This document shows positions 235 to 41,698 of a stretch of 64,000 bases of DNA, one piece after another. Source of the stretch: Rhizophagus irregularis (taxonomy: Eukaryota). Location of the stretch: positions 5,022,001-5,086,000 of the forward strand of contig NC_089432.1 in NCBI RefSeq assembly GCF_026210795.1, in the 5' to 3' direction. The position numbers and the translations under genes are program-made. Positions within the stretch are counted from its first letter, which is position 1. Each line of letters starts with the position of its first letter. The notes below the pieces were generated by a model, which saw only the letters and a list, made by a program, of their open reading frames with translations, did not search any database and had not been told where the DNA came from.

Positions 235-2553
235 ATGTCTGATAATAAGCAAATGCAAAATACCGAAAATACAAATGAATGGATTAATTGGATTGAAGAA
301 GCTATTGTTAAAGAACATTTAAAATATTACGAATACAAAGAATTTAGTAACTTTCAAGAAATTGGTACCGGAGGTTTTGGAAAAGTGTATCGTGCAAAGT
401 GGAAAAACTTAGAAAAAAGTTTTGCCTTGAAATCTTTTTTTAGTCTTAATAATATCACTATGAAAGAAATTGTTCGTGAGGTAATTTAATATTATAATTA
501 ATTTTTTTTTTTTACTCTATAATTTTTTAGTATTATTATATTTATTTTAAAAACTTGAATTTATTTAGTTAAAAATTCAACGTGAAGTTGATTTTCATGA
601 TAATATTATTCGTTGCCATGGAATAACAAAATTTGAATCGGGTATTTATATAAAGATACTTTAGTAATAAATATAATCTTTTAAGATTTTATTCACAAAA
701 TTGCATTTCAATAATGATATTTTTTTTTTTAGAAAATCATCTTAATAATAATTATATGTTGGTAATAGAATACGCTGACGGTGGCAGTCTTCGAAATTAT
801 TTAAAGGAAAATTTCGGTGAACTTACCTGGGACGATAAGTACCTTATGGCGTATCAGTTAGCTTGCGCAGTATCATGCTTGCATGATGAGAAGATTATTC
901 ATCGTGACTTGGTAATTATTATTTTAGTCATTTTTAGGTAATTCAATGTTTGTATTTATTCATTTAGCACGCACTCTTTAATAGCACTCTGGCAATATAT
1001 TAGTCCATAAAAACACGATCAAATTAGCGGATTTTGGTCTATCAAAAAGAATTGGAGCATCGTCCAACTTTCAATCTAAATTATTTGGGATGGTTCCTTA
1101 TGTTGATCCAAAAAGTTTTAGCAGACGAAGAAATAATAATCAAATGTTTACATTAAATGAAAAAAGTGATGTTTACAGTGTTGGCGTATTATTATGGGAA
1201 ATTTCTAGTGGACAACCTCCTTTTTATGCTGAAGATGAACATTATGACGTTGGATTAATTTATGACATTTCACAAGGTCATAGAGAAACGGTTGTTCCCG
1301 ACACCCCCGAAGATTATATAAAAATTTATACTAGTAAGTAAAATTAATTTAAATCTAACTAGAGCTATTATTTTAATAAATTTTAAATTATATTTTTAAT
1401 TGTTTTAGAATGTTGGGACGGTGAGCCTGATAATCGACCTACTATTTATCAAGTAGTTGATTGGTTAAAAGCAAAGATTACAAAAACAGATATAATAACG
1501 GAAAATCCTCAATTATCAGATGAACAAGAACTTAATGAGGTTCCTTTAAGCACCAATAATTCAGAATCACAAGGAGATTTATCTCAACTTATCCAAAATT
1601 TTAATAAAATGAATACAAAAGAAATTGATAATATAGTAGTATCAAGTGAGCAAGAGATACTTTTAAATGAAAAGGATTTAAAGGATTTTAACAGAAAAGA
1701 TTTTAGCATTATAGTTGATGAAATAAATGATTTAATTTATAAATTATGTAATAAAGGAATTGAATGGAAATTAGTAAGAGAGCAAGTTATTGAATATTTT
1801 AATAATTATAATACAAATTCACAAGAAATTAATAATTGGTTATTAAATAATCAAAATAATTCAAATTCCATTTTTTTACTTGGATATTTTAATTTTTATG
1901 TAATTGAGACAAGCCGAAATTATGAGAAAGCATTTAAATTATTTATTAATTCATCAGAAAAAAATCATATATTAGCACAATCTTTTGTTGGTGGATGTTA
2001 TCAATATGGAAATGGAACTAAAAAAAATGAAAAGTTAGCTTTTAAATATTTTGAAAAATTAGCTAATAAAAATTTCACACATGGACAACTTAAAATTAGT
2101 TATTGTTATGAAAATGGAATAGGTATTGAAAAAGATTTAAAAAAGGCTTTTTATTGGTATGAAAAAGCCGCAAATAATGGAAATATATTAGCTAAGCATA
2201 ATCTTGGTCTTTGTTATAAAAATGGAAAAGGGGTTGAAAAAGATTATAACAAAGCTTTTGAATTGTTTAAACAATCAGCTGATGGAGGATATTTAGGTGG
2301 AATAACAATGTTAGGAAATTGTTGTTTTTATGGTATTGGAACTAAAATTGACAAGCAAAAAGCATTTGAACTATGTCAAAAATCAGCGAATTTAGGACAA
2401 ATGGTAGGACAATCTAATCTTGCTTTGATGTATGAAAGTGGAAATGGAATTATAAAGGACATGGATAAAGCGATTTATTGGTATGAAAAATCTGCCAAAC
2501 AAGGTTATCAGGATGCACAAAATAGATTAGAAATACTTCAAAAAAATAAATAA
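235..2553 (+). CDS. G1: TKL protein kinase-Sel1 repeat protein (~663 aa), 5 exons: 235-480, 569-641, 733-911, 985-1333, 1409-2553
   Basis: GT-AG introns join the ORF pieces in frame. Motifs [42 protein letters not shown]. About six Sel1 repeats (e.g. [26 protein letters not shown]). No signal peptide or TM segment seen. Confidence 0.92.
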
Positions 2554-3834
2554 TTTATAATAAATTCTTTCTTATTAAATCGTAAAATGTAAATCAATTA
2601 AATCAATTAAATTTGCTAAATTATTTTTTTTTATTTTATAGAATAGTGTATACTAAGATATAATAAATAAAATCTTATCAATATTTATAATCATCCTTAA
2701 GTAATTACAAGTATTTTTTTTTATCAAGTTAATATGTATATTTTTCTTATAAATTAAAATGTCGTTCTAGGATTTACAAAACTCATGAGGGTTTAATTCA
2801 TTTTTCCGAAAATTTAATTGTTAAAATTATTGATGCTTATTTTTTGGCACTATTTTTTGAAATGATCTCATATATGAAAGAAAATACAATGAAGTATGAT
2901 GGTAATTAAGGAAGTGCTTTTTATATTATATAAAGCAAAAAAAAAAATTAATAATTTAGATCTTTTATGTAAAAGAAATATTTTTATAAAATATAAAAAT
3001 ACTTGTATTATAAATCACTTATATTACTGTACGATATTGATTGTTAAGCATTTGTCAACCATATGATGGTAAACTTAAAATCAATGAATACCTGCTTAAA
3101 CTACATCAATCTAAATTTCTCATGATGTTTAAAATAAGAAGCAGAATGATGGCAGTATTGCGATTTTGATGTTTCATTTAATTGTTAATAAGTCGAATAA
3201 AAGAAATACCCGGTTTGTTAGTCTTTAAAAAGGTAACAATAAGTATTTGAGAAATGAAAATGTCACAATGAATCCAGGGTATAGGACTAAACGATCGTCA
3301 TTACTAGCTGGTAACAAAGCAACTGAAAATGTTTTCTATCTTTGAAAATATTAGCTGTTAAGTAAACAACTTGAGAGAAATTGGTAAATTTACGACAATA
3401 TGTTCAAACGTCCTTCACCAATCACCATCTGGTTTTTTAAGCCAATTTATACTCTCAAGTTGAAAATATTATTCTATATATTATTATTATTATCATGGTC
3501 TTGCATTAAATTAATAGATAAGTTCAAACTAACGAGCCCTAGTACAAAGTTTGTGCCACATAACTTATCGATGTTCTCTTTAAACTAATGTATATTTGTA
3601 TGGTTATCATAGTTATCGATAATAGGATATCGAATAATCAACCAACTTCAATTAGAAAATGTACCTAATTATTTATTATTAGACTACTAAAGATATAAGC
3701 TTACATAATTTTGTTTTAAAAATAATTACGCAATATTACCCAAGACCTACTTAAAGACGACATTGATTTTTTTCACATAATAATAATTTATACATTAAAA
3801 ATTCATTACAAATTACTTAATAATTATATAATTA

Positions 3835-4310
3835 TCATATTATATAAGTCATTTTCTGTTCATAAATGTTTATTTATTTCGAGCATCTTGATCTCCTTGT
3901 TTGACTGATTTTTCATATTAAAGTATCGCTTTACCAATATTTTTCGTTACTCCTTGTCCTATTTTAGTTCGTATGATTTTAAAAGATTAGGTATATTGAG
4001 CTGCACTATTTCCTAAATTTGCGACTTTTTGATATTATTCAAATTTCAAATTCATTTTGTCTATCAGTCAAATTGAAATAATATTGAAATGATCTCTGAA
4101 TACTCGATATATACGTATATATATCAGGAAAAAGAAAAAAATACATAGCTGATAATAATTATCTAATATTAAGCGAAAACTAAAAAATTTATGTTTATTT
4201 AGCGGCATAATCTTCTAAAAGTTTGATTATTTTTGATAAACCAATATTTGCTAACTTGATTGTGTTTGATTGACAGGCTCATTGACCAATATATTACTAG
4301 AGTATTATTA
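3835..4310 (-). pseudogene. Relic of G6-type kinase-Sel1 gene (last Sel1 repeats plus a kinase DFG-region remnant)
   Basis: tttatttcgagcatcttgatctccttgttt...gagctgcactatttcctaaattt matches 32806-32943; ttttgataaacc...aacttgat...accaatatattac matches 34212-34267; many indels. Confidence 0.8.
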
Positions 4311-5786: not shown

Positions 5787-5913
5787 ATGTCCGACCATAT
5801 CAAAATGCAAGATACAGAAAATGCGAATGAATGAATTAATGGATTTGAAGAAATTATTGTTAAAGAACCGATACAGAACAATTTAGTAATTCTCAACAAA
5901 TTAGAATACCTGG
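5787..5913 (+). pseudogene. Relic of exon 1 of a kinase-Sel1 gene
   Basis: atgtccgaccatatcaaaatgcaagatacagaaaatgcgaatgaatga resembles the G2/G7 start, with the Trp codon changed to TGA and deletions; a single ATTACTGCGG lies upstream at 5662. Confidence 0.75.
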
Positions 5914-6730: not shown

Positions 6731-9006
6731 ATGTGTGATAATATCAAAATGCATGATACCGAAAATAAAAATGAATGGATTGATTGGATTAAAGAAGTTA
6801 TTGATAAGGAACATTTAAAATATTATGAATACAAAGAATTTAATAACTTTCAAGAAATTGGTACCGGAAGTTTTGGAAAAGTGTATCGTGCAAATTATAA
6901 AAATTTTGAAAAAAATTTCTCTTTGAAATCTTTTTTTGGTTTAAACAATATCACTATGAAAGGAATCGTTCGTGAGGTAATTTAGTATATATATATATAT
7001 AATATTTATTTATTTGTTTATTTATTTATTTTTTATTATTTTATAATTTATATTCTATTATATTTATTTCATAAACTTTGAATTTATTTTAGTTAAAAAT
7101 TCAACGTGAAATTGATTTTCATGAAAATATTATTCGTTATCATGGAGTAACAAAATTTGAATCAGGTATTTTGAAGTATACAGTACTTTAATGGTTTTTA
7201 TTAACAAAATTGTATATTAATGATTTCTTTTTTTTAGAAAATCGGATCAATGACAATTATATGCTAGTAATGGAATACGCCGACGGTGGTAGTCTTCGAA
7301 ATTATTTAAAGAAAAATTTTAGTAAACTTACCTGGGATGATAAGTACCTTATGGCGTATCAGTTAGCTTCCGCTGTATCATGCTTACATAATAAAGGGAT
7401 TGTCCATCATAACTTGGTAATTTATTTATTATTATTTAATGGTTGTGATAATGTTATATATTCAACTTTGTTTAATTAATATATATATTTTAATAGCACC
7501 CTGGTAATATATTGGTTCATCAAAACACAATCAAATTGGCGGATTTTGGATTATCAAAAAGAAATGGAATATCATCCAATTTTCAATCCAAATTATTTGA
7601 AATGATTCCTTATGTTGAACCAAAAGGTTATAGTGGGAGAACAAATAACAATAATCAAACACGAATACAATCCTTTAATAAGAAAAGTAATGTTTACAGT
7701 ATTGGTGTATTATTTTGGGAAATATCCAGCGGTCAATCTCCTTTTAATGCTAAAGTTGAACAATATGATGTTGGTTTAATTTTGGAAATTTCGCAAGGTC
7801 TTAGAGAGACTGTTATTCCCAACACACCTGAAGAATATACAAAAATTTATACTAGTAAGTATATTTGATTATAATTTGAATATTTATTTCAATAATAAAA
7901 TTAATTAAATTAAATTTTTTTATTTAGAATGTTGGGATGGTGAACCGGATGATCGACCTACCATATACCAAGTAGTAGATTGGTTAAAAGCAATTATTAC
8001 AAAAACAGATGTTAATGAAATCCCTTCAAATACCAATAATTCGGAATCACAAGAATTTATTTCTAGAATTATTCAAAATTTTGACAAAATAAGTCTGAAA
8101 GAAATTGATCCTATAACAATATCAAATGAACGAGAGAAACTTTCATTTGAAAAAGGTTTTGATAAAATAATTGATGAAGTAAATGATTTGATTTTTGAAT
8201 TATTTAATAAAGGAATTATATGGAAATTAGTAAAAGAACAAGTTATTGAATATCTTAATAATTATAATACTAATTCAAAAGAAATTTATAATTGGTTATT
8301 AAATAATCAAGATAATTTAAATTTCACTTTTTTACTTGGATTTTTTAATTATTCAGGAATTGAAACAAAAAAAAATAATGAGAAAGCATTTAAATTATTT
8401 ATTAAAGCATCAGAAAAAGATCATATATTAGCAAAATCTTATATTGGTGAATGTTATCAATATGGATATGGAACTTTAAAAAATGAAAAATTAGCTTTTG
8501 AATATTATCAAAATGTTGCAGATAAAAATTTTACTCATGGACAATTAAAAATTGGATATTTTTATAAAAATGGAAAAGTTATTGAAAAAGATTTAGAAAA
8601 AGCTTTTTATTGGTATAAAAAAGCTTCAAATAATGGAAATATTTTTGCTATGCATAATCTTGGTAATTGTTATTTAAGTGGTGAAGGTATTGAAAAAGAT
8701 TATAATGAAGCTTTTGAATTATTTAATCAATCAGCTGAAGGAGGTTATTCAAGTGGAATGACTTCATTAGCATATTGTTGTTATAATGGTATTGGTACTA
8801 ATGTTGATAAACAAAAAGCATTTGATTTATATCAAAAATCTGCAAATTTAGGTAGTATGACAGCACAATATAGTCTTGGTATTATGTATGAAAATGGAAA
8901 AGGAATTACAAAAGATATAGATAGAGCTATTTATTGGTATGAAAAATCTGCCAAACAAGGTCATCAAAAAGCACAAAAAAGATTAAAAGCACTTCAAAAA
9001 AATTAA
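6731..9006 (+). CDS. G2: TKL pseudokinase-Sel1 repeat protein (~644 aa), exons 6731-6976, 7093-7165, 7238-7416, 7497-7854, 7928-9006
   Basis: Same exon structure with the frame open throughout. Catalytic loop reads HHNL|HPGN instead of HRDLHSGN; subdomain IX reads KSNVYS instead of KSDVYS; DFG and the beta-3 Lys are retained. Confidence 0.85.
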
Positions 9007-9599: not shown

Positions 9600-10153
9600 T
9601 TTATACTTTTAACTTGCTAATAATGTTATCAATATCTTTTATTTCATTAGCACTTATTGATTAATAAACATGTTCGAGTTAACTATAATCTTTTTTCTAT
9701 AATAATATAAATAATTCGAATACTTTCTCAATTTTTCATTTATTTTAATTCTTAAATAATCAGAATATTTTAATAAAAATATTTGAAACTAAAAATAATT
9801 TTGATTTCTTATTATAAACCAATTGTATATTTCACATAAAATTTATATATCATGATTATAAATATAAATTTAAAAATTTTTTAAATTTATAAACTTTTTT
9901 CCTTTAATCAGTTATTTTAAAAAAATTCTATCCCATTAACTATTGTGATTAATTTCTTTTCAAATATTATTCTTTTATCTAATATTTTATTTTTTTTTTC
10001 AATCTTTTTGTATTTGATTTGATTAAAATAATTGTTCGTTTGAATGATTGAGAAGTCAATTTCCGATAATCACAATTGATCTGTTTTCATAATGAATTCT
10101 TTTAATTTTATATATATCGGTATATGATCATCCTGTCCTCCCAAAATTCTAAT
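9600..10153 (-). pseudogene. Relic of G6-type gene (exon 5 region)
   Basis: Degraded match to ~33300-33840 (ttcgaatactttc...ttttcatttattttaat; taactattgtgattaa; ccaaaattctaat). Confidence 0.7.
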
Positions 10154-10174
10154 AAAATATTCTATAACTAATTG

Positions 10175-11745
10175 TTGGGTCCGTGGCGGAAGATCTCAAT
10201 CATTAAGAGAAACTCTCTCCTGTCGATCCATCAACCAAAAATTTTGCGGAGGAAAAATAGAAGAGAGATATAAAGTATATATACAAACATACATAGATAT
10301 GGAGTCATATTTTGAGCAGAAAGAGCTTCAAGTCAAATTTCTTGAAGAAATAAGCAAGTTTATTAAACATCACTTTAAGAATATGGGAAAACGACAAAGT
10401 CAGCTTCATAAAAAATATAGACCGAGTTTTTAGACAGTTCTACCAACGTAGGAACGATTAAACTTATCGATCCAAATTAAAGAAACAACTAAAAACTAGT
10501 TTTTTTTTTAAAAGAACAAGTTGCTCAGCAAAATTAAGTAGTGAGACAGCCAAACTATTACTGAAGTGTGGTGAAAATATAGCGTATGAGTTAATGTTAT
10601 ATCAGTTAAATAGGACGACAAAACGGCATACTAAAAGGATGGTTTAAGAGAGTCACGTATGAAAAAAAGAAAATTTCATACAAAAAAAAGAGCGAATCAT
10701 ATGGTAAAATCTGGAGTAAAACGGATAGAAAAATTTATGTCAGCAGTAAAGTAAACAGACGTTACAAAAAAGAATATAAACACAAAGTCTAAGTAATAGA
10801 CATTCCATAAGTTTACGATCTCTTTTTTATTATGATATACTAAAAAGATGGGTGTAATTCGTAACATAAGCTCATTTAGAGTTGTAAAGAAAATAAAAAT
10901 TAAAAACTTTATAAATTACAAACTGTAAGAGCAGATATGTGAATTTAAAAAGTTCTTTTGGTGTTATCATGTGGGAGAATTACGTGTGTTAATATAGTGG
11001 GAATACACGCACAGTGGAAAGAGCAGAGAGATCAATAGCAACTAGTGAGGAATGTTGAATACATTTCAAGTTGAGGTAAATTTTACAGAATAATATAAAA
11101 ATTTTCATACAAATTCAACGCAAGCTTTATATAATCGATAAAGTTCAACGGCTAATTACGCGTTGGAGAAATCATTTACAAGAGAATTAAAGTTTGGTTG
11201 ATCTACAAATGTAGGAATTTATCCAAACACTTTAATATAAATTACGTAGTCAAGACGCAATCAATAGAGAAGCAAAGTGAGAGAATACGAGTGGGGATAG
11301 AGATACAGATATAGATATAATGAAGTACTATGAAGATATTATATCGATATTTGATGATGGAGTAGGAAAAATTAATTTTGTTAGGAGGCAATTGACTCAG
11401 AGGATGAATTGTCACCAAAAAGTTTCTTGGTTTAAGAGACATGTACAGTATATCATAAAATGGATGAGAAGGTTGATGAGATCACAAAGACTTAAGATGA
11501 AACAACAAGTAAATTAGATGAAAAGATAAATCAGTGATCGTGATTGAGGATAATCCTACTCCATCTACTCCATCACCGGAACAGACTAAGGGTTTCCGGG
11601 CGACGTATGAAAAAAGCGAAGGAGAGAAAGTCGCAAGAGATGGTAAAGAATCAAGTAACTTCCCGATAAACAAACTACAAACACAATCATCGGACAAGAA
11701 TCACGTGATTCCGGAAACAGAAGAGGTCGTTGATACTATAACAGA
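10175..11745 (+). mobile_element. Decayed coding-like insertion, possibly a retroelement fragment
   Basis: Purine-rich, higher-GC block with broken ORFs between two G6 relics; no diagnostic RT or transposase motif recognised. Confidence 0.3.
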
Positions 11746-11749
11746 TAAA

Positions 11750-13551: not shown

Positions 13552-15818
13552 ATGTCTGATAATAAAAAAGTGCAAAATACCGAAAATACGAATGAATGGA
13601 ATAATTGGATTGAAGAAGCTATTGATAAAGAACATTTAAATTACTACGAATATAACCAATTTACTAACATTCAAGAAATTGGTGCCGGAGGTTTCGGAAA
13701 AGTATACCGTGCAAATTGGAAAAATTCAAAAAAACAGTTAGCGTTAAAATCTTTTTTTAATCTTAATCATGTCACCATGAAAGAAATTGTTTGTGAGGTA
13801 CTAATTTATTTATATATAATACTTTTTTTTTTACCAATTTTTCTATTAGCTTATATTACATTTATTTAATATTTGATTAGTTAAAAATTCAACGTAAAGT
13901 TGATTTTCATGATAATATTATTCGTTGCTATGGAATAACAAAATTTGAATCAGGTATAACAACTGATACTAATCTTCCAAGTTTTATTCACAAAAATTGC
14001 ATTTTAATAATTATTCTTTTTAGAAAATCAAATTGGTAATAATTATATGATGGTAATGGAATACGCTGACGGTGGTAGTCTTCGAAACTATTTGGAAAAA
14101 AACTTTAGTAAACTCACTTGGGACGACAAATTCAATATGGCGTACCAATTAGCTTACGCTGTATCATGCTTGCATAATGAAGGGATCATCCATCGTGATT
14201 TGGTAATTTATTTATTATTATTTAATAATTGTTCACAACGCTGATTTGCATTTACCTATTTAATAAATTTTTAATAGCATTCTGGCAATATATTAGTTTG
14301 TCAAAATACGATCAAACTGGCAGATTTTGGGTTATCAAAAAGAATTGGAGCATCATCCAATTTTCAATCCAAATTATTTGGAATGGTTCCCTATGTTGAT
14401 CCTAAAAGCTTTAGCAGACGAAGAAATAATAATAACCAAACGTATACATTAAATGAAAAAAGTGATGTTTACAGTGTTGGCATATTATTATGGGAAATAT
14501 CTAGTGGTCAACCTCCTTTTCATGCTGAAGGTGAACAATATGATGTTAGCTTAATTTTAGAGATTTCACAAGGTCTTAGAGAAACTATTGTTCCTGACAC
14601 GCCCAAAGATTATATAGAAATTTATACTAGTAAGTAAAATTTTAGGCCTATTGTAACTAAATATTATCTTAATTAACCTTAAATTATATTTGTGTTTTAG
14701 AATGTTGGGACGGTGAGCCAGACAATCGTCCTACTATATATCAAGTAGTTGAAGCAATAATTACAAAAACAAATATAATAACGGAAAATCCTCGCTTATC
14801 AAATGAGCAAGAACTTAATGAGGTCCCTTTAAGTACCAATAATTCAGAATCACGAGGAGAATTATCCCAACTTATTCAAAATTTTTATAAAATGAATACA
14901 AAGGAAATTGATAATATAGCAGTATCAAATGAACAGGAGAAACTTTTAACTGAAAAGGATTTTAACAGAATAGTTGATGAAATAAATTATTTAATTTTTA
15001 AATTATTAAATAAAGGAACTAGTAAAGGAGAATTAGTCAAAGAGCAAGTTATTGAATATTTGAAAAACTATGATACAAATTTACAAGAAATTTATAATTG
15101 GTTATTAATAAATAATCAAAACATACCAAATTCAATTTTTTTACTTGGATATTTTAATTATAAGGGAGTTGAGACAAGAATTAATTATAAGAAAGCATTT
15201 AATTTATTTATCAATGCATCAGAAAACAATCATATATTAGCACAATATTTTGTTGGTGTTTGTTATTTTTTTGGACATGGAATTATGAAGAATGAAAAAT
15301 TAGCTTTAAAATATTTTAAAACAACAGCAAATAAAAATTTAACAAATGGACAAAAGGATACAGGTTATTGTTATGAAAATGGAATAGGTATTGAAAAGGA
15401 TTTAAGTAAGGCTTTTTATTGGTATGAAAAAGCTGCAAATAATGGAAATATAATAGCTATAAAAAATCTTGGTATTTGTTATAGAGATGAAATTGGGGTG
15501 AAGAAAGATCATTACAAAGCTTTTGAATTATTTAAGCAATCAGCTGAAGGAGGATATTCAGGTGGAATGATTTCATTAGGATATTGTTATGAACTTGGTA
15601 TTGGAACTAAAATTGACAAGCAAAAAGCATTTGAATCATATCAAAAATCAGCGAATTTAGGAAATAAAGTTGCACAATATAATATTGGTGTTATGTATGA
15701 AAATGGAGATGTAATTACAAAAGATTTAGATAAAGCAATTTATTGGTATAAAAAATCTGCTAAACAAGGACATCAATTTGCAAAAAATAAGTTAGAAATA
15801 CTTCAAAAAAATCAATAA
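13552..15818 (+). CDS. G3: TKL kinase-Sel1 repeat protein (~655 aa), exons 13552-13797, 13881-13953, 14024-14202, 14278-14629, 14701-15818
   Basis: GAGGFG, HRDL|HSGN, DFG and DVYS present; Sel1 repeats; in-frame 9-nt deletion after QVV. Confidence 0.92.
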
Positions 15819-19181: not shown

Positions 19182-21598
19182 ATGTCTGATAATAAGAAAA
19201 TTCAAAATACTAAAAATACAAATGAATGGGTTAATTGGATTCAAGAAGCTATTGATAAAGAACACTTAAATTATTATGAATACAACCAATTTACTAACAT
19301 TCAAGAAATTGGCGCCGGAGGTTTCGGAAAAGTGTACCGCGCAAATTGGAAAAATACAAAAAAACAATTAGCGTTAAAAACTTTTTTCAACCTTAATCAT
19401 ATCACCATTAAAGAAATTGTTTGTGAGGTAATTTCAGTTATTATTGATATATCTTTTTCTACGATGCTTTTTTAGTCTGTAACTCTGTATTTATTTATTT
19501 TAATATTTGTATTTATTTTAGTTAAAAATTCAGCGTAAAGTTGATTTCCATGATAATATAATTCGTTGTCATGGAATAACAAAATTTGAATCAGGTATTA
19601 TATGGTATTATAAGAGACTTTAATAAGTACTATGTTATTCTAAATTTTATTCACAAAGTGCTTTCAATTTTTTTTTTAGAAAATCAAATTGGTAATAATT
19701 ATATGATGGTAATGGAATACGCTGACAGTGGTAGTCTTCGAAACTATTTGGAAAAAAACTTTAGTAATCTCACTTGGAACGATAAATTCAATATGGCGCA
19801 CCAATTAGCTTACGCTGTATCATGCTTGCATAATGAAGGGATCATCCATCGTGACTTGGTAAGTTAATTATTCTTATTTAATAATTATTCATAACGCTGT
19901 ATTTGCATTTACTTATATGTCTTTTATAGCATTCCGGCAATATATTAGTTCATCAAAATGTGATCAAATTGGCAGATTTTGGATTATCAAAAAGAATTGG
20001 AGCATCATCCAATATTCAATCCAAATTATTTGGGATAGTTCCCTATATTGATCCGAAAAGCTTTAACAAACGAAGAAATAATAATAACCAAGTGTTTTCA
20101 TTAAATGAAAAAAGTGATGTTTACAGTGTTGGCGTATTATTATGGGAAATATCCAGTGGCCAACCTCTTTTTTATGCTGAAGGTGAAGAATATGATGTTA
20201 GTTTGATTTTGGAAATTTCACAAGGTCTTAGAGAAACTATTGTTCCTGACACGCCCGAAGAATATGTAAAAATTTATACTAGTAAGTAAAATTTTAAATT
20301 TAAATATAACTAGAATACTATTGCTGGTGATTCTCACCGTGCATTGGCAAATAGTAACGGGCAGAGTTTCATGACATTTTTAATTCGGTCCGAAATTCTA
20401 CCCTAATTCTGGTAAGGTGATAATCACTTGCGGTATTCTATTATCTTAATCACTAACCTTAAATTATATTTGTGTTTTAGACTGTTGGGACGGTGAGCCA
20501 GATAATCGTCCTACTATATATCAAGTAGTTGATTTGTTAAAAGCAATGTTTATTACAAAAACAGATATAATAGCAGAAAATCCTCAATTATTAGATGAGC
20601 AAGAACTTAGTGAAGTCCATTTAAGTACCAATAATTCAGGACTACAAGGAGAATTGTTCCAACTTATTCAAAATTTTGATGAAATGAATACAAATGAAAT
20701 TGATAATACAATAGTAAATATACAAGAGAAACTTTTAGCCGAAAAAGATTTTAGCAAAGTAGTTGATGAAACAAATGATTTAATTTTTAAATTGTATAAT
20801 AAAGGAATTGATATGGATTTAGTAAAAGAACAAATTATTAAATATTTTAATAACTATAATACAAATTCACAAGAAATTTATAATTGGCTATCAAATAATC
20901 AAAGTTCAAATTCGATTTTTTTACTTGGATATTTTAATTTGCTTGGAATTGAGATAAGTAAAAATAACGAGAAAGCATTTGACTTATTTATTAGTGCATC
21001 AGAAAAGGATCATATATTAGCACAATCTTTTGTTGGTGTATGTTATCAATATGGAAATGGAACTATAAAAAATGAAAAATTAGCTTTTAAATATTATGAA
21101 AAAGCGGCTAATAAAAATTTCGCACGTGGACAACTTAAAATTGGTTATTTTTATGACAATGGAATAGGCACAAAAAAAGATTTAAAAAAGGCTTTTTATT
21201 GGTATGAAAAAGCTGCAAATAATGGTAATATAATAGCTATGCATAATTTAGGTAGATGTTATTTAAATGGAGAGGGTGTTGAAAAGGATTATAATAAAGC
21301 TTTTTGGTTATTTAAGCAATCAGCTGAAGGGGGATATTCAAGTGGAGTAACAATGTTAGGATATTGTTATAATTATGGTATTGGAACTAACATTGATAAG
21401 CAAAAAGCTTTTGAATTATATCAAAAATCAGCAAATTTAGGAAATAAGGTAGCACGATGCAATCTTGGTATGATGTATGAATTCGGAGATGGAATCACAA
21501 AAGATAAATATAAAGCGATTTATTGGTATGAAAAATCTGCCAAACAAGGATATCATAAAGCACAAAATAGATTAGAAATACTTCAAAAAAATCAATAA
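19182..21598 (+). CDS. G4: TKL kinase-Sel1 repeat protein (~655 aa), exons 19182-19427, 19522-19594, 19680-19858, 19930-20281, 20481-21598
   Basis: Same motifs and intron phases as G1; intron 4 enlarged by a MITE. Confidence 0.92.
20313..20438. mobile_element. MITE in intron 4 of G4
   Basis: TA|GAATAC...GTGATTCTCACC at the left end and GGTGATAATCAC...GTATTC|TA at the right; TA on both flanks; absent from intron 4 of the paralogs. Confidence 0.75.
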
Positions 21599-28694: not shown

Positions 28695-28927
28695 ATTATA
28701 ATATGTAAATTCTCTCGTAAATGTTGTAATTTATTTCGAGCATCTTTATCTCCTTGTTTGGCAGATTTTTCATACCAAAGTATAGCTTTACCAACATTTT
28801 TCGTTACTCTTAATCATGTTTCAAATGATACTGCAAGATTTTATTGAGCACTATTTCTTAAATTCGCTGCTTTCTGATATAATTCAAATGCTTTTTGTCT
28901 ATCAACTTTAGTACCAATTCCATTATT
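28695..28927 (-). pseudogene. Relic of the G6-type 3' end
   Basis: Near-identical to 32761-33006 with small deletions; ends at agtaccaattccattatt, about 30 bp before the G5 upstream motif. Confidence 0.85.
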
Positions 28928-29146: not shown

Positions 29147-31421
29147 ATGTCCGATAATAAGCAAATGCAAAATACCGAAAATACAAATGAATGGATTAAT
29201 TGGATTGAAGAAGCTATTGATAAAGAACATTTAAATCATTATGAATACAACCAATTTACTAATATTCAAGAAATTGGTTCTGGAGGTTTCGGAAAAGTGT
29301 ACCGTGCAAATTGGAAAAATACAAAAAAACAATTAGCATTAAAAACTTTTTTTAATCTTAATCATGTCACCATGAAAGAAATCGTTTGTGAGGTAATTTA
29401 TTATATAATACCTTTTTTTTACGATGTTTTTTAACCTATATTATTTTATTTTTAATATTTGAATTTATTTTAGTTAAAAATTCAACGTAAAGTTGATTTC
29501 CACGATAATATTATTCGCTGCCATGGAATAACAAAATTTGAATCAGGTATTATAAATATTATAAAGAGATATTATATCTAAATTTTATTCACAAAATTTC
29601 ATTCCAATTTTTTTTTTTTTAGACAATCAAATTGGTAATAATAATTATATAATGGTAATGGAATACGCCGACGGTGGTAGTCTTCGAAATTATTTGGAAA
29701 AAAACTTTAATAGGCTCACATGGGACGATAAATTAGATATGGCATACCAATTAGCTTACGCTGTATCATGCTTGCATAATGAAGGGATCATCCATCGTGA
29801 CTTGGTAATTTATGTATTATTATTTAATCATTGTTCGTAACACTGTATTTGTATTTATTTATTTATATATGTTTTTTTAATAGCATTCCGGCAATATATT
29901 AGTTCATCAAAACATGATCAAATTGGCAGATTTTGGGTTATCAAAAAGAATTGGAGCATCATCCAATTTCCAATCTAAATTATTTGGGATGGTTCCCTAT
30001 ATTGATCCGAAAAGCTTTAGTAGACGAAGAAATAATAATAACCAAATTTTTTCATTAAATGAAAAAAGCGATGTTTACAGTGTTGGCGTATTATTATGGG
30101 AAATATCCAGTGGCCAACCTCCTTTTTATGTTGAAGGTGAAGAATATGATGTTAGTTTAATTTTGGAAATTTCACAAGGCCTTAGAGAAACGGTTGTTTC
30201 TGACACGCCCGAAGAATATGTAAAACTTTATACTAGTAAGTAAAATTTTAAATTTATTATAATTTAAATATTGTTTTAATTAATTATATTTGTGTTTTAG
30301 AATGTTGGGACGGTGAGCCAGATAATCGTCCTACTATATATCAAGTAGTTGATTTGTTAAAAGCAATAATTACAAAAACAGATATAATTACGGAAAATCC
30401 TCCATTATTGAATGAGCAAGAATTTAGCGAGATCCATTTAAATACCAATAATTCGGAATCACAAGGAAAATTATCCCAACTTATTCAAAATTTTAATAAA
30501 ATGGACACAAAAGAAATTGATAATATAGTAGTATCAAATAAGCAAGAGAAATTTTCAACTGAAAAAGATTTTAACATAGTAGTTGATAAAATAAATGATT
30601 TAATTTATAAATCCTATGATAAAGGAATTGAAGGGGAATTAGCAAAAGAGCAAGTTATTGAATATTTTAACAATTATAATATAAATTCACAAGAAATTTA
30701 TAATTGGTTATTAAATAATCAAGTTAATTCAAATTCCATTTTTTTACTTGGATATTTTTATTATTATAGAATTGAGACTAGTGAAAATAATGAGAAAGCA
30801 TTTAATTTATTTATCAATGCATCAGAAAACAATCATATATTAGCACAATCTTTTGTTGGTGAATGTTATCAATATGGTTATGGAACTATAAAAAATGATA
30901 AACTAGCTTTTGAACATTTTGAAAAAGTGGCTAATAAAAATTTCACATATGGAAAATTTAAAATTGGTTCTTATTATATGGAAGGAATAGGTATTAAAAA
31001 AGACTTAAAAAAGGGTATTTATTGGTATGAAATAGCTGCAAATAATGGAAATATGATTTCCATACATGATTTAGGTATTTTTTATTTATATGGAATTGGT
31101 GTTGAAAAAGATTTTAATAAAGCTTTTGAATTATTTAAACAATCAGCTGAAGGAGGAAATTTAATTGGAATGATTTCATTAGGATTTTGTTATGAAAGAG
31201 GTATTGGAACTAAAATTGATAAGCAAAAAGCATTTGAATTATATCAAAAATCAGCAAATCTAGGAAGTAAAATAGCACAATATAATGTTGGTAATATGTA
31301 TGGAAATGGAAATGGAATTACAAAAGACATAGATAAAGCAATTTATTGGTATGAAAAATCCGCCAAACAAGGATATCAAGATGCACAAAATAAGTTAAAA
31401 ATACTTCAAAAAAATCGATAA
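29147..31421 (+). CDS. G5: TKL kinase-Sel1 repeat protein (~657 aa), exons 29147-29392, 29474-29546, 29623-29804, 29884-30235, 30301-31421
   Basis: GSGGFG, HRDL|HSGN, DFG and DVYS present; Sel1 repeats; canonical splice sites. Confidence 0.92.
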
Positions 31422-32760: not shown

Positions 32761-35066
32761 TTATAATATATAAATTCTCCCATTTTCTACTCGTAAATGT
32801 TGTAATTTATTTCGAGCATCTTTATCTCCTTGTTTGGCGGATTTTTCATACCAAAGTATAGCTTTACCAATATTTTTCGTTACTCCTAATCCTGATTCAT
32901 ATGATACTGCAAGATTATATTGAGCTGCACTATTTCCTAAATTCGCCGCTTTCTGATATAATTCAAATGCTTTTTGTCTATCAATTTTAGTACCAATCCC
33001 ATTATTATAACAATATCCTAACATTGATATACCATCAGCATCTTCATTATCAGCTAATCGTTTAAATAATTCAAAAACTTTTTTAAAATTTTTTTTATCC
33101 TTATAAATGAAAGCGAGATTATACATTGCTATATTATTTCCATTTTTTGCAGCTTTTTCATACCAATAAGTTGCTAATTTAAAATCTTTTTCAATACCTA
33201 TTCCCATATCATAACAATGACCAATTTTTAATTGACCCATTGCATAACCCTTATTAGCCAAACTTTCAAAATATTTAAAAGCTAATCTTTCACTTTTCGT
33301 TACACCATGTCCAAATAAATAACATTCTCCAACATAATATTGTGATAATAAATGATTTTTTTCTGATGTAATAAAAAATATTTCGAATGCTTTCTTAAAA
33401 TTTTCATTTATTTTAATACCTAAATAATTAAAATATCCTAATAAAAACATTGTATCCAAATCATCATTATTTTGATTTTTTATTAACCAATTATATATTT
33501 CACTTAAATCCATATCATGATTATTTAAATAATTTAAAATAATTTGTTTTCTTAAGTTAGCATCTTTTCCTTGATCCGTTATTTTAAAAATGTATGATAC
33601 TATTTCTTTAACTATTGTGATTAAATCTTTTTCAAATATTATTCTTTTGTTTATTGGATTTATTGTGAATTTCACTACTTTTGTATGTGATTTGATAAAA
33701 TTTTGTGATGATAATGATTTTTCGTTTGATGATTTCTCACATTGATTGGATTGATCTGATTTCATAATGATCTCATTTAACTTGGTGAACACTTGATACA
33801 TAGTTGGACGATTATCCGGCAGATCATCCCAACATTCTAATGAAAGAAGAAAAAGAAAATATAAACAATTATTAAACGAGAAACCAAAAAAGATCAATTT
33901 TAAAAATCAATTTACATACCTGTATATAATTTTACGTAATCTTCGGGCGTACCAGGAATAACAGCCTCTCTAAGACCTTTTGAAATATTTACAGACATGT
34001 CATCATCATTTTGATTACTTTCAGTATGAAAAGGAGGACGACCACTAGAAATCTCCCATAATAATACGCCAACGCTGTAAATGTCACTCTTTTTATTAAA
34101 TGAATAAATTTGTGTTGGGCTACTACTATTTCTTCTTCTAAATCTTTGTGGATCAACGTAAGGTATTATTCCGTTTAAATTTGATTGTGATTTAGTTATT
34201 TCTTCGATTCTTTTTGATAAACCAAAATCCGCCAACTTGATCGTGTTTTGATGAACCAATATATTACGAGAGTGCTATTAAAATTTAATTGATTAGTATG
34301 ACACATGACGATATAAAGTATATAACGATGTAAAATAATATGGGAAACAAAAAAAATTACCAAATCACGATGAACTATTCCACTATTATGTAAACATAAT
34401 ACGGCGTAAGCCAACTGATGCGCCAAATTATACTTATCATTCCAAGTGAGGTTGTTAAAATTTTTCTTCAAATAGTCTTGAAGGGTGCCGCTATCAGCAT
34501 ACTCCATCACTAATAAGTAATTATTTTCTATAGACGTAAAACGAATAATTAAATTTACATACATATATATATATACTTTCAATATTCAAACAATATATAA
34601 TCATACCTGATTCGTCCTTCGTAATTCCATATAAACGAAGAATATTATTATGAATAACTACGTCTCGTTGAAGTTTAAGCTAAAAAAAAACAAAAAAAAA
34701 ATTAGATAAAAATAAAAAATATTTTACCGAAAATAGGTCGAACCATCCGGAAACTTCCGACAACATTTCGAATTTCGATAACGTTTCTGCGGAAGTCTTC
34801 CGGATGAGTCCGGATAATTTCCGAAGTAAAGAAATTACCTCACGAACGATTTCCTTTGTAATAACATTGTTAAGGTTATAAAAAGATTTCAATACTATGT
34901 ATTCTTTAAAATCTGTACAATTTGCACGGAATACTTTTCCCAAATTTCCAGAGCCTATTTCTTGTATATTACTAAAATTTCTATATTCATAATATTTGAA
35001 ATATTCTTTGGCGATAGCGGATTCGATCCAATTAATCCATTCATTCGAATTTTTTGTTTCTTGCAT
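32761..35066 (-). CDS. G6: divergent TKL kinase-Sel1 repeat protein (~632 aa), exons 35066-34839, 34679-34607, 34527-34361, 34274-33920, 33836-32761
   Basis: GSGNLG, HRDL|HSRN, DFG, DIYSVG, CWDDLPDNRP; Sel1 repeats; same intron positions; convergent with G5. Confidence 0.9.
34724..34829. mobile_element. Palindromic MITE-like insert in intron 1 of G6
   Basis: catccggaaacttccg pairs with cggaagtcttccggatg; ends TTAC...GTAA; GC-rich within an AT-rich intron. Confidence 0.65.
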
Positions 35067-36537: not shown

Positions 36538-36693
36538 TTTATCGAATTTTTTTTTTTCAGGTGCTTTACTTGTAATCATATAATTACTCATTATTTATGA
36601 CTATGAAGCTCTTGCTTTAATTTTCTCCTTCATAATTTTCTACTTCATTTAATTATCCTATTGATTGTTCAAGGTTTTCTCTAATTAAATATG

Positions 36694-36892
36694 TTCCGTT
36701 ATATCAAGGTTCCGGTATATCGAATTTCACTGTATATAAGTAAAGTCTGGATATATCGGAATTGGAGTCTGAAATGGATTATTATAATCTATAATTAATT
36801 TACCCTCGATATAACGGATTTCTCGATATAGCGGATTTTTGACAAATTTTATTAATGGAACGGATGGTTTCATTATATCGAATTTCAGTGTA
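36694..36892. mobile_element. pogo/Tigger-like MITE fragments
   Basis: Two right-end-like motifs, ATATCGAATTTCACTG|TA and ATATCGAATTTCAGTG|TA, plus ctcgatata..cggat subterminal repeats; similar to 55718-55897. Confidence 0.55.
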
Positions 36893-37799: not shown

Positions 37800-38325
37800 A
37801 TAGATGAAGAAAAGTATTCGCTTGTTCTTGAATATGCGGACTGTGGAACATTAGGAAAATATCTAAGGGACGATACTATGACTTTTAATTGGGAGAACCA
37901 ATTAAGATTACAAGTGCGATTTTATGGTTACATGATGTTAAGGGAATCCGTACATGGGGATCTGGTAAATAAAATATTTTGTGTTATCTTACTATATTAC
38001 GTAATTAACATATTCTTTTTTTAGCATCCCAATAATAGCTTTAATACACCAAGATGCAATAAAATTGTCAGATTTTTGTCGTTCATTTGAAAAAGGAAAG
38101 GGCTGTAATGATACTGGAGTATATGGTGTAATACCCTATGTGGACTCCAACATGCTTAATCGAGAAATTTTTATAAGATATTCTGGGAATTAGCAAGTCG
38201 CTCATCACCTTTCAATTATGAAACGAGAAACTATCACACTTCTCCTATGTTGGATATTCTTAGTGGTTAAGAGAAGAACCGATTCCAAACACGAATATTA
38301 AATTTATTAAACTTTATCAACGTAA
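37800..38325 (+). pseudogene. TKL kinase pseudogene fragment of a different subfamily
   Basis: YSLVLEYADCGTL, HGDL|intron|HPNN, IKLSDFC, YGVIPYVD, FWELAS...PF, ILSG*REEPIPNT; frameshifts and an in-frame stop. Confidence 0.82.
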
Positions 38326-39397: not shown

Positions 39398-41698
39398 TTA
39401 CGATTTTAGTGAAAGAATTTCAAAATATTTTTTTTGTGCTTTTTGATATCCTTGTTTGGCGGATTTTTCATACCAATAAATCGCTTTATCTATGTCTTTT
39501 GTAATTCCATTTCCACTTTCATACATCAAAGCAAGATTAGATTGTGCTATCATGTCTCCTAAATTTGCTGATTTTTGATATAATTTAAATGCTTTTTGCT
39601 TGTCAATTTTAGTTCCAAAACCATTAAAATAACAATATCCTAACGTTGTCATTCCACTTGAATTTCCCCCTTCGACTGATTGCTTAACTAATTCAAAAGC
39701 TTTATTATGATCTTTTATGACACCCTCTCCATTTAAATAACAAAGACCTAAATCATGTATGGCTATCATATTTCCATTATTGGCAGCTTTTTCATACCAA
39801 TAAATACCCTTTATTAAGTCTTTTTCAATGCCTACTCCTTTCATATAATAATAACCAATTTGAAATTTTCCATATGTGAAATTTTTATTAGCCACTTTTT
39901 CAAAATATTTAAAAGCTAGTTCATCATTTTTTGTAGTTCCATAACCATATTGATAACATATACCAACAAAAGATTGTGCTGATATATTATTTTTTTCTGA
40001 TGCATTAATAAATAAATTAAATGCTTTCTCATAATTTCTGCTTGTCTCAATTCCATAAAAATTAAAATATCCAAGTAAAAAAATGGAATTTGAATTATTT
40101 TGATTATTTGATAACCAATTATAAATTTCTTGTGAATTTGTATTATGGTTATTAAAATATTCAATAACTTGCTCTTTTAACAATTCTTCTCCAACTCCTT
40201 TATTTAATAATTTAAAAACTAAATCAATTATTTCATCAGCTATTATGTTAAAATCTTTTTGAGTTGGAATATTTTCTTGTTTACTTGACATTACTATAGG
40301 ATCAAATTCTTTAGTATCCATTTTGTCAAAATTTTGGATAAGCTGAGATAATTCTCCTTGTGATTCTGAATTATTGGTACTTAAAGGTGGTGCTTCATTG
40401 ATTTCTTGCTCATTTGATAATTGAGGATTTTCCGTTATTATATCTGTTTTTGTAATTAAAGCCTTTAACCAATCAACAACTTGATATATGGTAGGACGAT
40501 TATCTGGTTCACCATCCCAACATTCTGAAAAATACGGTAAATATAATTTGAGATTAATTAAAAATAATATTAAAATTAAAAACTAAATTTAAAATATTAC
40601 TTACTAGTATAAATTGTTACATATTCCTCAGGTGTTTCAGGAACAATAGTTTCTCTATGGCCTTGTGAAATATCCAAAATTAAACTAACATCATATTGTC
40701 CATCTTCAGCATCAAAAGGAGGTCGGCCACTAGATAATTCCCATAATAATACGCCAATACTGTAAATATCACTTTTTTCATTTAATGAGTATATTTGTGT
40801 TTGGTTATTATTATTTCTTTTCCTGCTAAAGCTTTTTGGATCAACATAAGGGACCAACCCAAATACTTTGGATTGAAAATTGGATGATGCTCCAATTCGT
40901 CTTGATAATCCAAAGTCCGCCAATTTGATCGTGTTTTGATGGACTAATATATTGCCAGAGTGCTATTAAAAGTATATATTAAATAAGTATATACAAATAT
41001 AAAATTACCAACAATAATAAATAAATTACCAAATCACGATGGACAATCCCCTCATTATGTAAGCAAGATACAGCGCTAGCCAACTGATACGCCATAAGGT
41101 ACTTATCATCCCAAGTAAGTTTACTAAAGTTTTTTTTCAAATAACTTCGGAGACTACCACTGTCGGCGTATTCCATTACTAGCATATAATTGTTATTAAT
41201 ATGATTTTCTAAGGAATAAAGGGAATAAGTAATCATTAAAAAAATATTTTTATTAATAAATTTGGTACATTTATTATTAAGGTAGAAATTAATAATACCT
41301 GATTCAAATTTTGTTATTCCATGACAACGAATAATATTATCATGGAAATCGACTTCACGTTGAATTCTTAGCTAAATAAATTTCAAATTTTTTTAAAAAA
41401 TAAATATAATATTAAAAATCGCAAATAAAAAAAATTCTTGTACATTAATTACCTCACGAACAATTTCTTTAACGGTGAGATTGTTAAGATTAAAAAAAGA
41501 CTTTAACGCAAAATATTTATCCAAATTTTTCCAATTTGCACGATAAACTTTTCCAAAACCCCCGGTACCAATTTCTTGAAAGTTATTAAATTCGTCATAT
41601 TTGTAATATTTTAATTGATTTTTGTCAATAGTTTCTTCAATCCAATTTATCCATTCATTTTTATTCTCAGTATCATGCATTTTGATATTTTCAGACAT
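39398..41698 (-). CDS. G7: TKL kinase-Sel1 repeat protein (~660 aa), exons 41698-41453, 41371-41299, 41208-41030, 40962-40605, 40524-39398
   Basis: Inverted copy of the G1/G2 type; GTGGFG, HRDL|HSGN, DFG and DIYS present; Sel1 repeats. Confidence 0.92.

What the first reader, a model, noticed from the sequence alone, without database searches (positions are those of the whole stretch)
1860..40100. Hypervariable residues recur at the same helix-A positions of each Sel1 repeat
Aligning G1/G2/G3/G4/G5/G7: repeat 4 LG[L/N/I/R/I/L]xY[KN/LS/RD/LN/LY/LN]; repeat 5 C[CFY/CYN/YEL/YNY/YER/YFN]G; repeat 3 Y[EN/KN/EN/DN/ME/MK]G; repeat 2 G[G/E/V/V/E/I]CY; repeat 1 F[NFY/NYS/NYK/NLL/YYY/NFY]. Helix-B segments ([37 protein letters not shown]) and the kinase are far more conserved. 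In TPR/Sel1 solenoids helix A lines the concave ligand groove, so radical charge and size swaps there suggest a variable recognition surface.
Basis: partly seen in the sequence, partly recalled or inferred. Interest (0 to 1): 0.8.

Follow-up and report, generated by a model that had tools for sequence, protein, structure and literature searches.

The report
Mycorrhizal kinases with variable recognition grooves
A root-symbiotic fungus carries a tandem array of kinase genes whose copies differ mainly at the few residues predicted to line a binding groove, while the same gene in sister species mostly keeps those residues, so the family likely works as a repertoire of sensors that each recognise a different partner.

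Summary
The window holds seven intact five-exon kinase-Sel1 genes of Rhizophagus irregularis type. Variation recurs at helix-A positions 3, 6, 7, 10, 13 and 14 of each repeat. These equal the known peptide-contact positions of TPR and Sel1 solenoids. Their dN/dS is 0.56-0.91, against 0.12-0.16 for convex exposed positions and about 0.15 for the kinase, and 71 independent relatives show the same hot sites. New here: groove residues differ at 166 of 437 sites in 11 within-species pairs but at 47 of 328 in 8 cross-species pairs, with equal convex divergence. That is a specificity signature which simple lack of constraint does not predict. omega>1 is suggestive, not proven: single-tree tests pass and beat recombination nulls (0 of 85), but the genes are mosaic and block-wise tests weaken or fail. 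The principle and the gene expansion are known. A groove-diversified, NOD-less kinase sensor repertoire in mycorrhizal fungi was not found in my searches. The ligands are unknown.

The parts
235..2553 (+). G1: kinase-helical cap-6xSel1 gene, 663 aa; exons 235-480, 569-641, 733-911, 985-1333, 1409-2553; Sel1 domain 1858-2550
   Evidence: four GT-AG introns, open frame
6731..9006 (+). G2: paralog, 644 aa; catalytic loop HHNLHPGN lacks the catalytic Asp (predicted pseudokinase); Sel1 domain 8314-9003
13552..15818 (+). G3: paralog, 655 aa; Sel1 domain 15123-15815
19182..21598 (+). G4: paralog, 655 aa, identical to P0216; introns 1, 3 and 4 are joined in contigs of runs guessed to be RNA; Sel1 domain 20903-21595
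20786..20833 (+). G4 helical-cap fast patch (residues 386-401), a second variable surface ahead of repeat 1
   Evidence: coordinates computed from the gene model
20942..21559 (+). Span of the nine G4 groove codons with M8 posterior >0.8 (residues 438, 502, 509, 545, 575, 581, 582, 614, 643; Sel1 positions 14, 6, 13, 13, 7, 13, 14, 10, 3)
   Evidence: six genes, F3x4; coordinates computed from the gene model
29147..31421 (+). G5: paralog, 657 aa, identical to P0025; intron 3 joined in a contig of a run guessed to be RNA; Sel1 domain 30726-31418
32761..35066 (-). G6: divergent member (about 55% identical to the others), 632 aa, identical to P0209; groove kept in its R. clarus counterpart P0210 (2 of 42 differ, kinase 35 of 264)
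39398..41698 (-). G7: paralog, 660 aa; Sel1 domain 40096-39401; shares the repeat 1-4 block with G5 (bootstrap 100)
28715..28927 (-). Broken remnant of a G6-type 3' end; further G6-type remnants at 3873-4043, 9723-10186, 11751-12380 and about 18570-18900
   Evidence: tblastn and self-blastn; the last remnant
42446..42905 (-). Broken remnant of a G-type last exon upstream of G7; a first-exon remnant lies at 5787-5876 (+)
63492..64000 (+). 5' part of a further kinase gene of the family, cut by the window end

Best explanation
These are intact, tandemly duplicated kinase-Sel1 genes whose copies differ mainly at the helix-A residues predicted to line the concave groove, and they likely form a repertoire of cytosolic sensor kinases in which each copy is predicted to bind a different protein ligand, most likely a foreign or non-self one. 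SHOWN: the architecture (TK/TKL-fold kinase, flexible linker, three-helix cap, six 36-residue Sel1 repeats plus a capping helix); purifying selection on kinase and scaffold; 4-6 times faster replacement at positions 3/6/7/10/13/14; mosaic exchange between copies; groove conservation between cross-species counterparts; groove change between within-species copies. INFERRED: after a duplication or conversion one copy's groove is re-specified, by episodic selection on point changes and on patches copied from other members, and is then held by purifying selection once it has a useful ligand. Ligand binding in the groove would switch on or aim the conserved kinase, so many inputs feed one output pathway. 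That the ligands are foreign (microbial, viral, other-strain or plant proteins) is inferred only from likeness to immune-receptor families. I put about 0.75 on 'groove = copy-specific ligand site' and about 0.45 on 'ligands are non-self'.
For: The position set was taken from the literature (TPR 2, 5, 6, 9, 12, 13; PMC1261162), not fitted to these data, although I had already seen the first site scan and the family entropies. It matches 9 of the 10 repeat residues named as peptide contacts in the Sel1 crystal 4bwr (PMC3851747; register). Fixed-class omega: groove 0.75-0.91, convex 0.12-0.16, kinase 0.14-0.16, linker 0.28-0.39 in 6 of 6 settings. 9 of 15 sites with M8 posterior >0.8 fall in the 42 of 636 groove codons (p 4e-8). 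In 71 relatives <85% identical to any window gene, 22 of the 40 fastest of 554 sites are groove sites. Reciprocal-nearest pairs chosen without groove sites: within species (11 pairs) groove 166/437 vs convex 64/438; across species (8 pairs) groove 47/328 vs convex 48/328 (Fisher p 2e-13 between groups). 31 of 124 groove changes in 9 within-species pairs need two or more base changes, against 7 of 99 at convex and loop sites. A protein-pair mixture puts about 17% of groove sites far above neutral in these pairs (LRT 17-28) and none in cross-species pairs. The single-tree M2a/M1a LRT of 16.1 was not reached by 0 of 48 coarse-mosaic and 0 of 37 fine-mosaic null simulations. Groove composition is 27% aromatic, against 5% on the convex face. 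G4 and G5 introns are joined in contigs of runs guessed to be RNA. Broken copies surround the genes, which fits birth-and-death evolution.
Against: The groove class never exceeds omega 1. On the Sel1 region alone it is 0.56-0.59, significantly below 1, and its 19 fast codons sit at about 1.0. With block-specific trees M2a/M1a falls to 3.9 (not significant) and M8/M8a to 6.0 on the whole gene, and to 0.4 and 1.6 on the Sel1 region. In simulations with true omega 4.7 only 1 of 15 block-tree tests fell that low, so the single-tree estimate is inflated. The nine window-picked codons changed less than the neutral expectation in other pairs (26 of 75 vs 33-38). Near-identical pairs (<5%, 13 pairs, some of them re-annotations of one gene) show no groove excess (4/532), so there is no sign of allelic balancing selection. 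Two of 19 pairs break the rule: P0172/P0193 (cross-species, groove 22/41) and P0119/P0104 (within-species, 4/42). The protein-pair mixture has no DNA, rests on an assumed scaffold omega, and cannot tell selection from conversion by distant donors. No ligand, activity or phenotype was tested.
Confidence: 0.55

Rival explanations
1. The groove is a copy-specific docking site for the fungus's own proteins (substrates, scaffolds or upstream regulators). The family diversifies ordinary signalling, not defence.
For: It predicts the same ortholog-kept, paralog-changed pattern. There is no allelic hypervariability. The literature reads the expansion as signalling complexity (PMC6123716).
Against: Rapid turnover with broken copies, mosaic exchange (PHI p<0.001; kinase and Sel1 nearest neighbours agree in only 34 of 82 proteins) and 42-45% groove change at 3-4% kinase change (P0233/P0235, P0156/P0173) are faster than self partners usually move. 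This is an inference.
Confidence: 0.25
2. Relaxed constraint plus gene conversion: after duplication the groove of a redundant copy has no ligand, drifts at about the neutral rate, and conversion shuffles the states.
For: Fast groove codons have omega about 1.0 on the Sel1 region. Total groove changes are below the neutral expectation (124 vs 152-176). Mosaicism is strong. 93 of 124 groove differences use states seen in two or more other members, though the scaffold figure is similar (130 of 200).
Against: Kinase and scaffold of the same copies stay at omega about 0.15-0.2, which is odd for redundant genes. The groove outruns the low-confidence linker by more than 2-fold. Cross-species counterparts inside the same family keep the groove (1/42, 2/42, 1/35, 2/42, 2/42). 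Multi-base changes are 3.5 times commoner than on other exposed sites. Null mosaics do not reach the observed LRT.
Confidence: 0.14
3. A het-like allorecognition locus: alleles of one gene differ at the groove between strains and control hyphal fusion.
For: Fungal allorecognition receptors use TPR-type sensors with selected concave positions (PMC4986451). Some within-species pairs come from different records and could be deeply diverged alleles rather than paralogs; this could not be resolved here.
Against: 13 near-identical pairs differ at 4 of 532 groove sites, the same rate as the kinase (28 of 3295).
Confidence: 0.05
4. Targeted mutagenesis: a DGR-like or locally hypermutable mechanism rewrites the groove codons.
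For: Multi-base codon differences are common at groove sites.
Against: The fitted synonymous rate at groove codons is 1.0-1.14 times the rest, and synonymous divergence in helix A is lower, not higher, than elsewhere (0.14 vs 0.25-0.36). The top-site codons show no single mutation type.
Confidence: 0.02

Closest known systems
Expanded kinase (PF07714/PF00069) and Sel1 (PF08238) gene families of Glomeromycotina (PMC8647823, PMC6123716, PMC8778642; passages read)
   Same: This is that family. G4, G5 and G6 are identical to R. irregularis database proteins. 22 of the 120 best hits list one 5.89-Mb contig as their longest. [quoted passage not shown]
   Different: The passages read describe copy number, methylation and transposon context. 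None reports site-level selection, groove mapping or an ortholog/paralog contrast.
Fungal NLRs with TPR/ANK/WD40 sensors, e.g. Podospora Pa_2_10340 and the HNWD het genes (PMC4986451, PMC13449251, PMC10197012; passages read)
   Same: C-terminal repeat sensor with variable concave-face positions, an N-terminal enzymatic effector, exchange between genes, clustered birth-and-death evolution.
   Different: No NACHT/NB-ARC domain; Sel1 rather than TPR repeats; repeats within a gene are not near-identical; variation is between copies, not between alleles; omega>1 is weaker here.
General TPR/SLR rule: hypervariable positions mark the ligand groove (PMC1261162; c5321 structure PMC3851747)
   Same: Same positions (TPR 2, 5, 6, 9, 12, 13 = positions 3, 6, 7, 10, 13, 14 here).
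   Different: There it is a statistic over unrelated proteins. Here it arises among recent tandem copies 68-80% identical, with codon-level and species-level data.
Helicobacter pylori slr/hcp Sel1 paralogs (PMC1941758; abstract and passages read)
   Same: An expanded Sel1 family with positive selection on surface residues.
   Different: Secreted bacterial proteins without a kinase. The passages read place selected sites on surfaces generally, not in one groove register.
[quoted passage not shown]
   Same: Signalling enzyme plus repeat sensor, diversifying selection on the concave face, high birth and death rates.
   Different: There each repeat is its own exon and is shuffled; here all repeats lie in one exon.
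F-box and BTB ubiquitin-ligase adaptors of nematodes and plants (recalled; the paper was not held)
   Same: Conserved N-terminal effector, fast C-terminal substrate-binding surface, clustered unstable copies beside a few stable members (like G6).
   Different: The output here would be phosphorylation, not ubiquitination. Recalled, not checked.

Membership tests
Sel1-like repeat solenoid (PF08238) | Tandem 36-residue helix-loop-helix repeats above the Pfam cut-off | tested here: met
   154-212 bits vs cut-off 30.7 in 7 of 7 last exons; 36-residue spacing; model helices at pLDDT 90-98, Foldseek hits to 6ok3, 4bwr, 8sxq
Sel1-like repeat solenoid (PF08238) | Variable positions lie on helix 1, on the concave peptide-binding face | tested here: met
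   DSSP puts positions 2-14 in helix A; sequence register to 4bwr puts 9 of 10 published contact residues in the set.
TK/TKL-fold protein kinase | Kinase fold with Gly loop, beta-3 Lys, catalytic Asp and DFG | tested here: met
   Fold Z 29 to BTK and RIPK4; motifs intact in 6 of 7 genes, G2 lacks the catalytic Asp
TK/TKL-fold protein kinase | Catalytic activity and residue specificity | not testable with these tools
   The catalytic loop reads HRDLHSGN, unlike the recalled HRDLKxxN or HRDLAARN; needs an assay
Fungal NLR | Central NACHT or NB-ARC nucleotide-binding domain | tested here: not met
   Pfam on P0001 lists only kinase and Sel1 families; the 110 residues between them are a low-confidence linker and a three-helix cap
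Fungal NLR (HIC type) | Near-identical internal repeats with length polymorphism | tested here: not met
   Repeats within one gene differ widely, by inspection (identity not computed); a few relatives lack one repeat
Diversifying receptor family | Sites with dN/dS > 1 | tested here: inconclusive
   Single-tree M8/M8a LRT 12-16 and M2a/M1a 9-16, beyond mosaic nulls; block-tree LRT 6.0 and 3.9 on the whole gene, 1.6 and 0.4 on Sel1 only
Diversifying receptor family | Binding surface kept in orthologs and changed in paralogs | tested here: met
   47/328 vs 166/437 at equal convex divergence; orthology inferred from reciprocal nearest neighbours, not from synteny
Diversifying receptor family | Exchange between copies and birth-and-death turnover | tested here: met
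   PHI 0 of 1000 shuffles, conflicting block trees; broken remnants
het/vic allorecognition locus | Highly divergent alleles under balancing selection | tested here: inconclusive
   No groove excess in 13 near-identical pairs, but deep alleles would have been classed as paralogs and synteny was not available
Immune or non-self receptor | Binds a non-self ligand and triggers a response | not testable with these tools
   No ligand or phenotype data

The most novel reading that the evidence does not exclude
Arbuscular mycorrhizal fungi have built an NLR-analogous intracellular immune repertoire without NLR switches: large arrays of kinase-Sel1 receptors whose grooves are re-specified by selection and inter-copy conversion to detect proteins of endobacteria, viruses, foreign nuclei or the host plant, with pseudokinase copies such as G2 as decoy sensors and stable copies such as G6 as fixed-ligand members.
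Probability: 0.3. Interest if true: 0.82.

Novelty: new variant of a known kind. Interest (0 to 1): 0.55.

Why it matters
The large kinase and Sel1 expansions of mycorrhizal fungi are well catalogued but unexplained, and could be transposon-driven clutter. This array shows they are not drifting uniformly: kinase and scaffold are under purifying selection, while one defined surface changes between copies and is kept between species. That turns 'what are these genes for?' into a concrete test: find what about 40 groove residues bind, and swap them. If the ligands are foreign, it would be a first receptor repertoire for non-self sensing in a symbiont of most land plants that shares one cytoplasm among many nuclei.

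Tried and rejected
No whole genome was held, so codon tests rest on six or seven genes. The metagenome scan gave 54 loci, of which about 11 are family members 43-71% identical and mostly partial; I read 13 of them and did not use them for codon models. Laying DNA-run contigs at 80% likeness drew 1053-2140 contigs per run, showing a very large family, but the variant table was cut to 40 rows and could not give pN/pS. Contig depth was not used to rank expression. The single-sequence fold of the Sel1 part (pLDDT 69) added nothing. The ESM Atlas search for the helical cap did not complete, so the cap has no assignment, and the VIA run covered only the kinase. Hypermutation at groove codons was rejected. 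'G6 duplicates were selectively lost' was considered and dropped: self-alignment shows the duplicated unit ends inside G6's 3' end, so several remnants may never have been whole. No complex prediction was run, because no binding pair is claimed. Literature: 10 searches. 'Sel1 + arbuscular mycorrhizal + positive selection' gave 0 papers, and 'Sel1 + positively selected + repeat + paralogs' gave 4, none on fungi. Subscription papers and supplements were not seen, so prior mention there is not excluded. Earlier scan notes on Naegleria kinase-Sel1 genes did not address site variation.
Full report
What is in the window. The DNA is 21-31% GC and intron-rich. Exon mapping gives seven intact genes with the same five exons and four GT-AG introns: G1 235-2553, G2 6731-9006, G3 13552-15818, G4 19182-21598, G5 29147-31421 on the plus strand, and G6 35066-32761, G7 41698-39398 on the minus strand. 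G1-G5 and G7 are 68-80% identical to each other; G6 is about 55% identical to them. G4, G5 and G6 are identical to database proteins named as Rhizophagus irregularis, and G1 differs from one at a single aligned residue. The best hits with the same architecture are named as Rhizophagus or Glomus proteins. Contigs of runs guessed to be RNA join G4 introns 1, 3 and 4 and G5 intron 3 at the modelled borders. An AlphaFold2 model from 73 sequences shows a kinase (fold Z 29 to BTK and RIPK4), a low-confidence linker, a three-helix cap and a Sel1 solenoid of six repeats plus a capping helix at pLDDT mostly 90-98, with pTM 0.48, so no fixed kinase-solenoid pose. I saw no signal peptide or membrane helix by inspection; no predictor was run.

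The observation. Numbering each repeat 1-36 (conserved L8, G9, Y12, G15), variability recurs at the same positions across repeats (Spearman 0.307; 0 of 2000 shuffles). It peaks at 10, 13 and 14, then 3, 16 and 19.

Where the positions lie. Helix A spans positions 2-14 in the model. Position n here equals TPR position n-1. Magliery and Regan (PMC1261162, passages read) give TPR positions 2, 5, 6, 9, 12 and 13 as peptide contacts on the concave face, which is 3, 6, 7, 10, 13, 14 here. I used this published set as the 'groove' class (42 codons), after having seen the first site scan and the family entropies. For a Sel1-specific check I took the residues that contact a peptide tail in the c5321 crystal (PMC3851747, sections 7 and 9 read) and placed them with the phmmer alignment to 4bwr: D304, T306, A309, N310, A313, R317, A341, N345, Y272 and K280 fall at positions 1, 3, 6, 7, 10, 14, 3, 7, 6 and 14. 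Nine of ten are in the set. That contact is a crystal contact, and the mapping is by sequence, not by model coordinates. The same paper already says the concave face is less conserved than the convex one.

Codon tests. PAML was not available, so I wrote GY94 models (naive Bayes posteriors, six beta classes, branch lengths scaled from M0). With one omega per class, groove codons give 0.75-0.91, exposed helix-B codons 0.12-0.16, kinase 0.14-0.16 and linker 0.28-0.39, in all six settings of gene set and codon frequencies. On the Sel1 region alone the figures are 0.56-0.59 and 0.12-0.13, and the groove class is significantly below 1. Site models on one tree favour a class of 4-6% of codons at omega 2.6-3.2 (M8/M8a LRT 12.4-16.5; M2a/M1a 8.7-16.5). 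Nine of the 15 sites with posterior above 0.8 are groove codons (p 4e-8). But the genes are mosaic: PHI is below all 1000 shuffles, G3/G4/G5 group in the kinase (bootstrap 100) and G5/G7 group in repeats 1-4 (bootstrap 100). With six block trees M8/M8a falls to 6.0 and M2a/M1a to 3.9; on the Sel1 region with three block trees they fall to 1.6 and 0.4. Simulation brackets this. Neutral data on coarse or exaggerated fine mosaics never reached the observed 16.1 (0 of 48, maximum 10.0; 0 of 37, maximum 13.2, with 4 of 37 above the nominal 5% line). True selection at omega 4.7 fell to a block-tree LRT of 3.9 or less in only 1 of 15 runs. So recombination does not fully explain the signal, but it does inflate it. 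Twenty groove codons chosen as fast in an independent protein set give omega 1.85 by tree-free pairwise likelihood (no test run), 1.4 by block trees (LRT 2.3-2.6, not significant), and about 1.0 on the Sel1 region alone (19 codons). Verdict: suggestive, not proven.

The family. From two protein searches I kept 79 full-length single-architecture hits; 78 sequences remained with the window genes after removing near-duplicates. In the 71 that are under 85% identical to any window gene, groove sites run at 3.3 times the kinase mean and exposed helix-B sites at 1.6 times, and 22 of the 40 fastest of 554 scored sites are groove sites. Seven more of the 40 lie in the helical cap, most at residues 389-400. 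Groove positions are 27% aromatic and 14% Lys/Glu; convex positions are 5% and 50%.

The decisive contrast. Of 105 aligned proteins, 82 passed coverage and redundancy filters (52 labelled R. irregularis, 21 R. clarus, 9 R. diaphanus; labels copied by hand from database names). I paired reciprocal nearest neighbours on non-groove Sel1 sites only, which gave 19 pairs. The 8 cross-species pairs differ at 47 of 328 groove and 48 of 328 convex sites. The 11 within-species pairs differ at 166 of 437 groove and 64 of 438 convex sites. Convex divergence is 14.6% in both; the per-pair ratio differs at p 0.007. G6 and its R. clarus counterpart differ at 2 of 42 groove sites, 35 of 264 kinase sites and 20 of 39 linker sites. 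P0233 and P0235 differ at 15 of 36 groove sites, 1 of 35 convex sites and 4% of the kinase. Two pairs go against the rule (P0172/P0193, P0119/P0104). Orthology is inferred, and some within-species pairs could be deep alleles. In the 9 within-species pairs without window genes, total groove change is below a neutral expectation (124 vs 152-176), yet 31 of the 124 changes need two or more base substitutions, against 7 of 99 at convex and loop sites. A two-class fit puts about 17% of sites far above neutral (LRT 17-28), with no such class in cross-species pairs. This fit has no DNA behind it and cannot separate selection from conversion by distant donors. Near-identical pairs show no groove excess (4 of 532 vs kinase 28 of 3295). 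The synonymous rate at groove codons is not raised.

How it most likely works. A conserved kinase is tethered to a solenoid whose groove sets partner choice. Tandem duplication makes copies; conversion reassorts kinase and repeat blocks (nearest neighbours agree for only 34 of 82 proteins); a copy that gains a useful groove is kept and its groove then fixed; others decay, leaving the remnants seen here. Ligand binding would activate or aim the kinase. Groove-as-specificity-site is well supported by indirect evidence. Episodic positive selection is likely but unproven. A non-self ligand is an analogy only. Internal signalling is the main rival, and drift of redundant grooves the next.

Comparison with what is known. 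The expansion of kinase and Sel1 genes in these fungi, and the fusion itself, are published (passages of PMC8647823, PMC6123716, PMC8778642). Groove hypervariability is a published rule for TPR/Sel1 scaffolds, and selected concave positions are known in fungal NLR TPRs (PMC4986451), in algal receptors (PMC3341825) and, as surface sites, in H. pylori Sel1 paralogs (PMC1941758). These genes are not NLRs: they have no NOD domain and no near-identical repeats. They behave evolutionarily like NLR sensor domains. My ten searches found no paper reporting site-level selection or an ortholog/paralog groove contrast for mycorrhizal kinase-Sel1 genes (bear on this); subscription papers and supplements were not seen.

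Verdict. Observation confirmed; interpretation partly supported; a new variant of a known kind; interest 0.55, rising to about 0.8 if the ligands prove to be non-self.

Noticed in passing
window 6731-9006 (G2): G2 keeps an open frame and intact splice sites but has lost the catalytic Asp (HHNLHPGN) and changed two other conserved kinase Asp positions; a predicted pseudokinase, either a decoy sensor or an early stage of decay. It has the longest branch among the six close copies.
   Followed up: partly
window 20786-20833 (G4 residues 386-401) and equivalents: A second fast-evolving patch in the three-helix cap before repeat 1 (residues 389, 394, 395, 398); two of its codons have M8 posterior 0.95-0.99. 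It may extend the groove; the cap has no family assignment.
   Followed up: partly
window 3873-4043, 9723-10186, 11751-12380, about 18570-18900, 28715-28927 (minus strand): Repeated remnants of the conserved G6-type gene; the tandem unit appears to end inside G6's 3' end, so each duplication carried a G6 fragment.
   Followed up: partly
window 20365-20410: One RNA-run contig (depth 3) includes a 46-base GT-AG-bounded extra exon inside G4 intron 4, between kinase and Sel1 exons; 46 bases would shift the frame and could give a kinase-only product.
   Followed up: no
window 48691-52145 (minus strand): Multi-exon trypsin-like protease gene with PDZ domains (Pfam PDZ_1, PDZ_6, Trypsin_2), resembling the Nma111/HtrA type (name recalled).
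   Followed up: no
window 23675-24938: Degenerate tandem repeat of about 160-170-base units; a low-depth contig from a run guessed to be RNA shows GT-AG joints across it.
   Followed up: no
window 22943-23329 (-), 27289-27711 (-), 37806-38317 (+): An RNase H fragment, an unassigned 141-residue frame that looks like a kinase-like fragment, and a decayed kinase of another subfamily lie between the array genes.
   Followed up: no
P0142, P0222, P0226, P0233, P0235: A young subfamily lacking one whole repeat, with members listed on four different large contigs; its members differ almost only at groove and adjacent positions. It is the best set for a codon test once DNA is available.
   Followed up: partly
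L003, L004, L006: Metagenome relatives in which the last repeat has been amplified into runs of near-identical repeats that differ at the groove positions, resembling high internal conservation in fungal NLR sensors.
   Followed up: no
kinase exons versus last exon, all six close copies: Synonymous divergence is higher in the kinase exons (0.36) than in linker, cap and helix A (0.14-0.23), which shifts omega estimates between whole-gene and Sel1-only fits; the cause was not found.
   Followed up: partly
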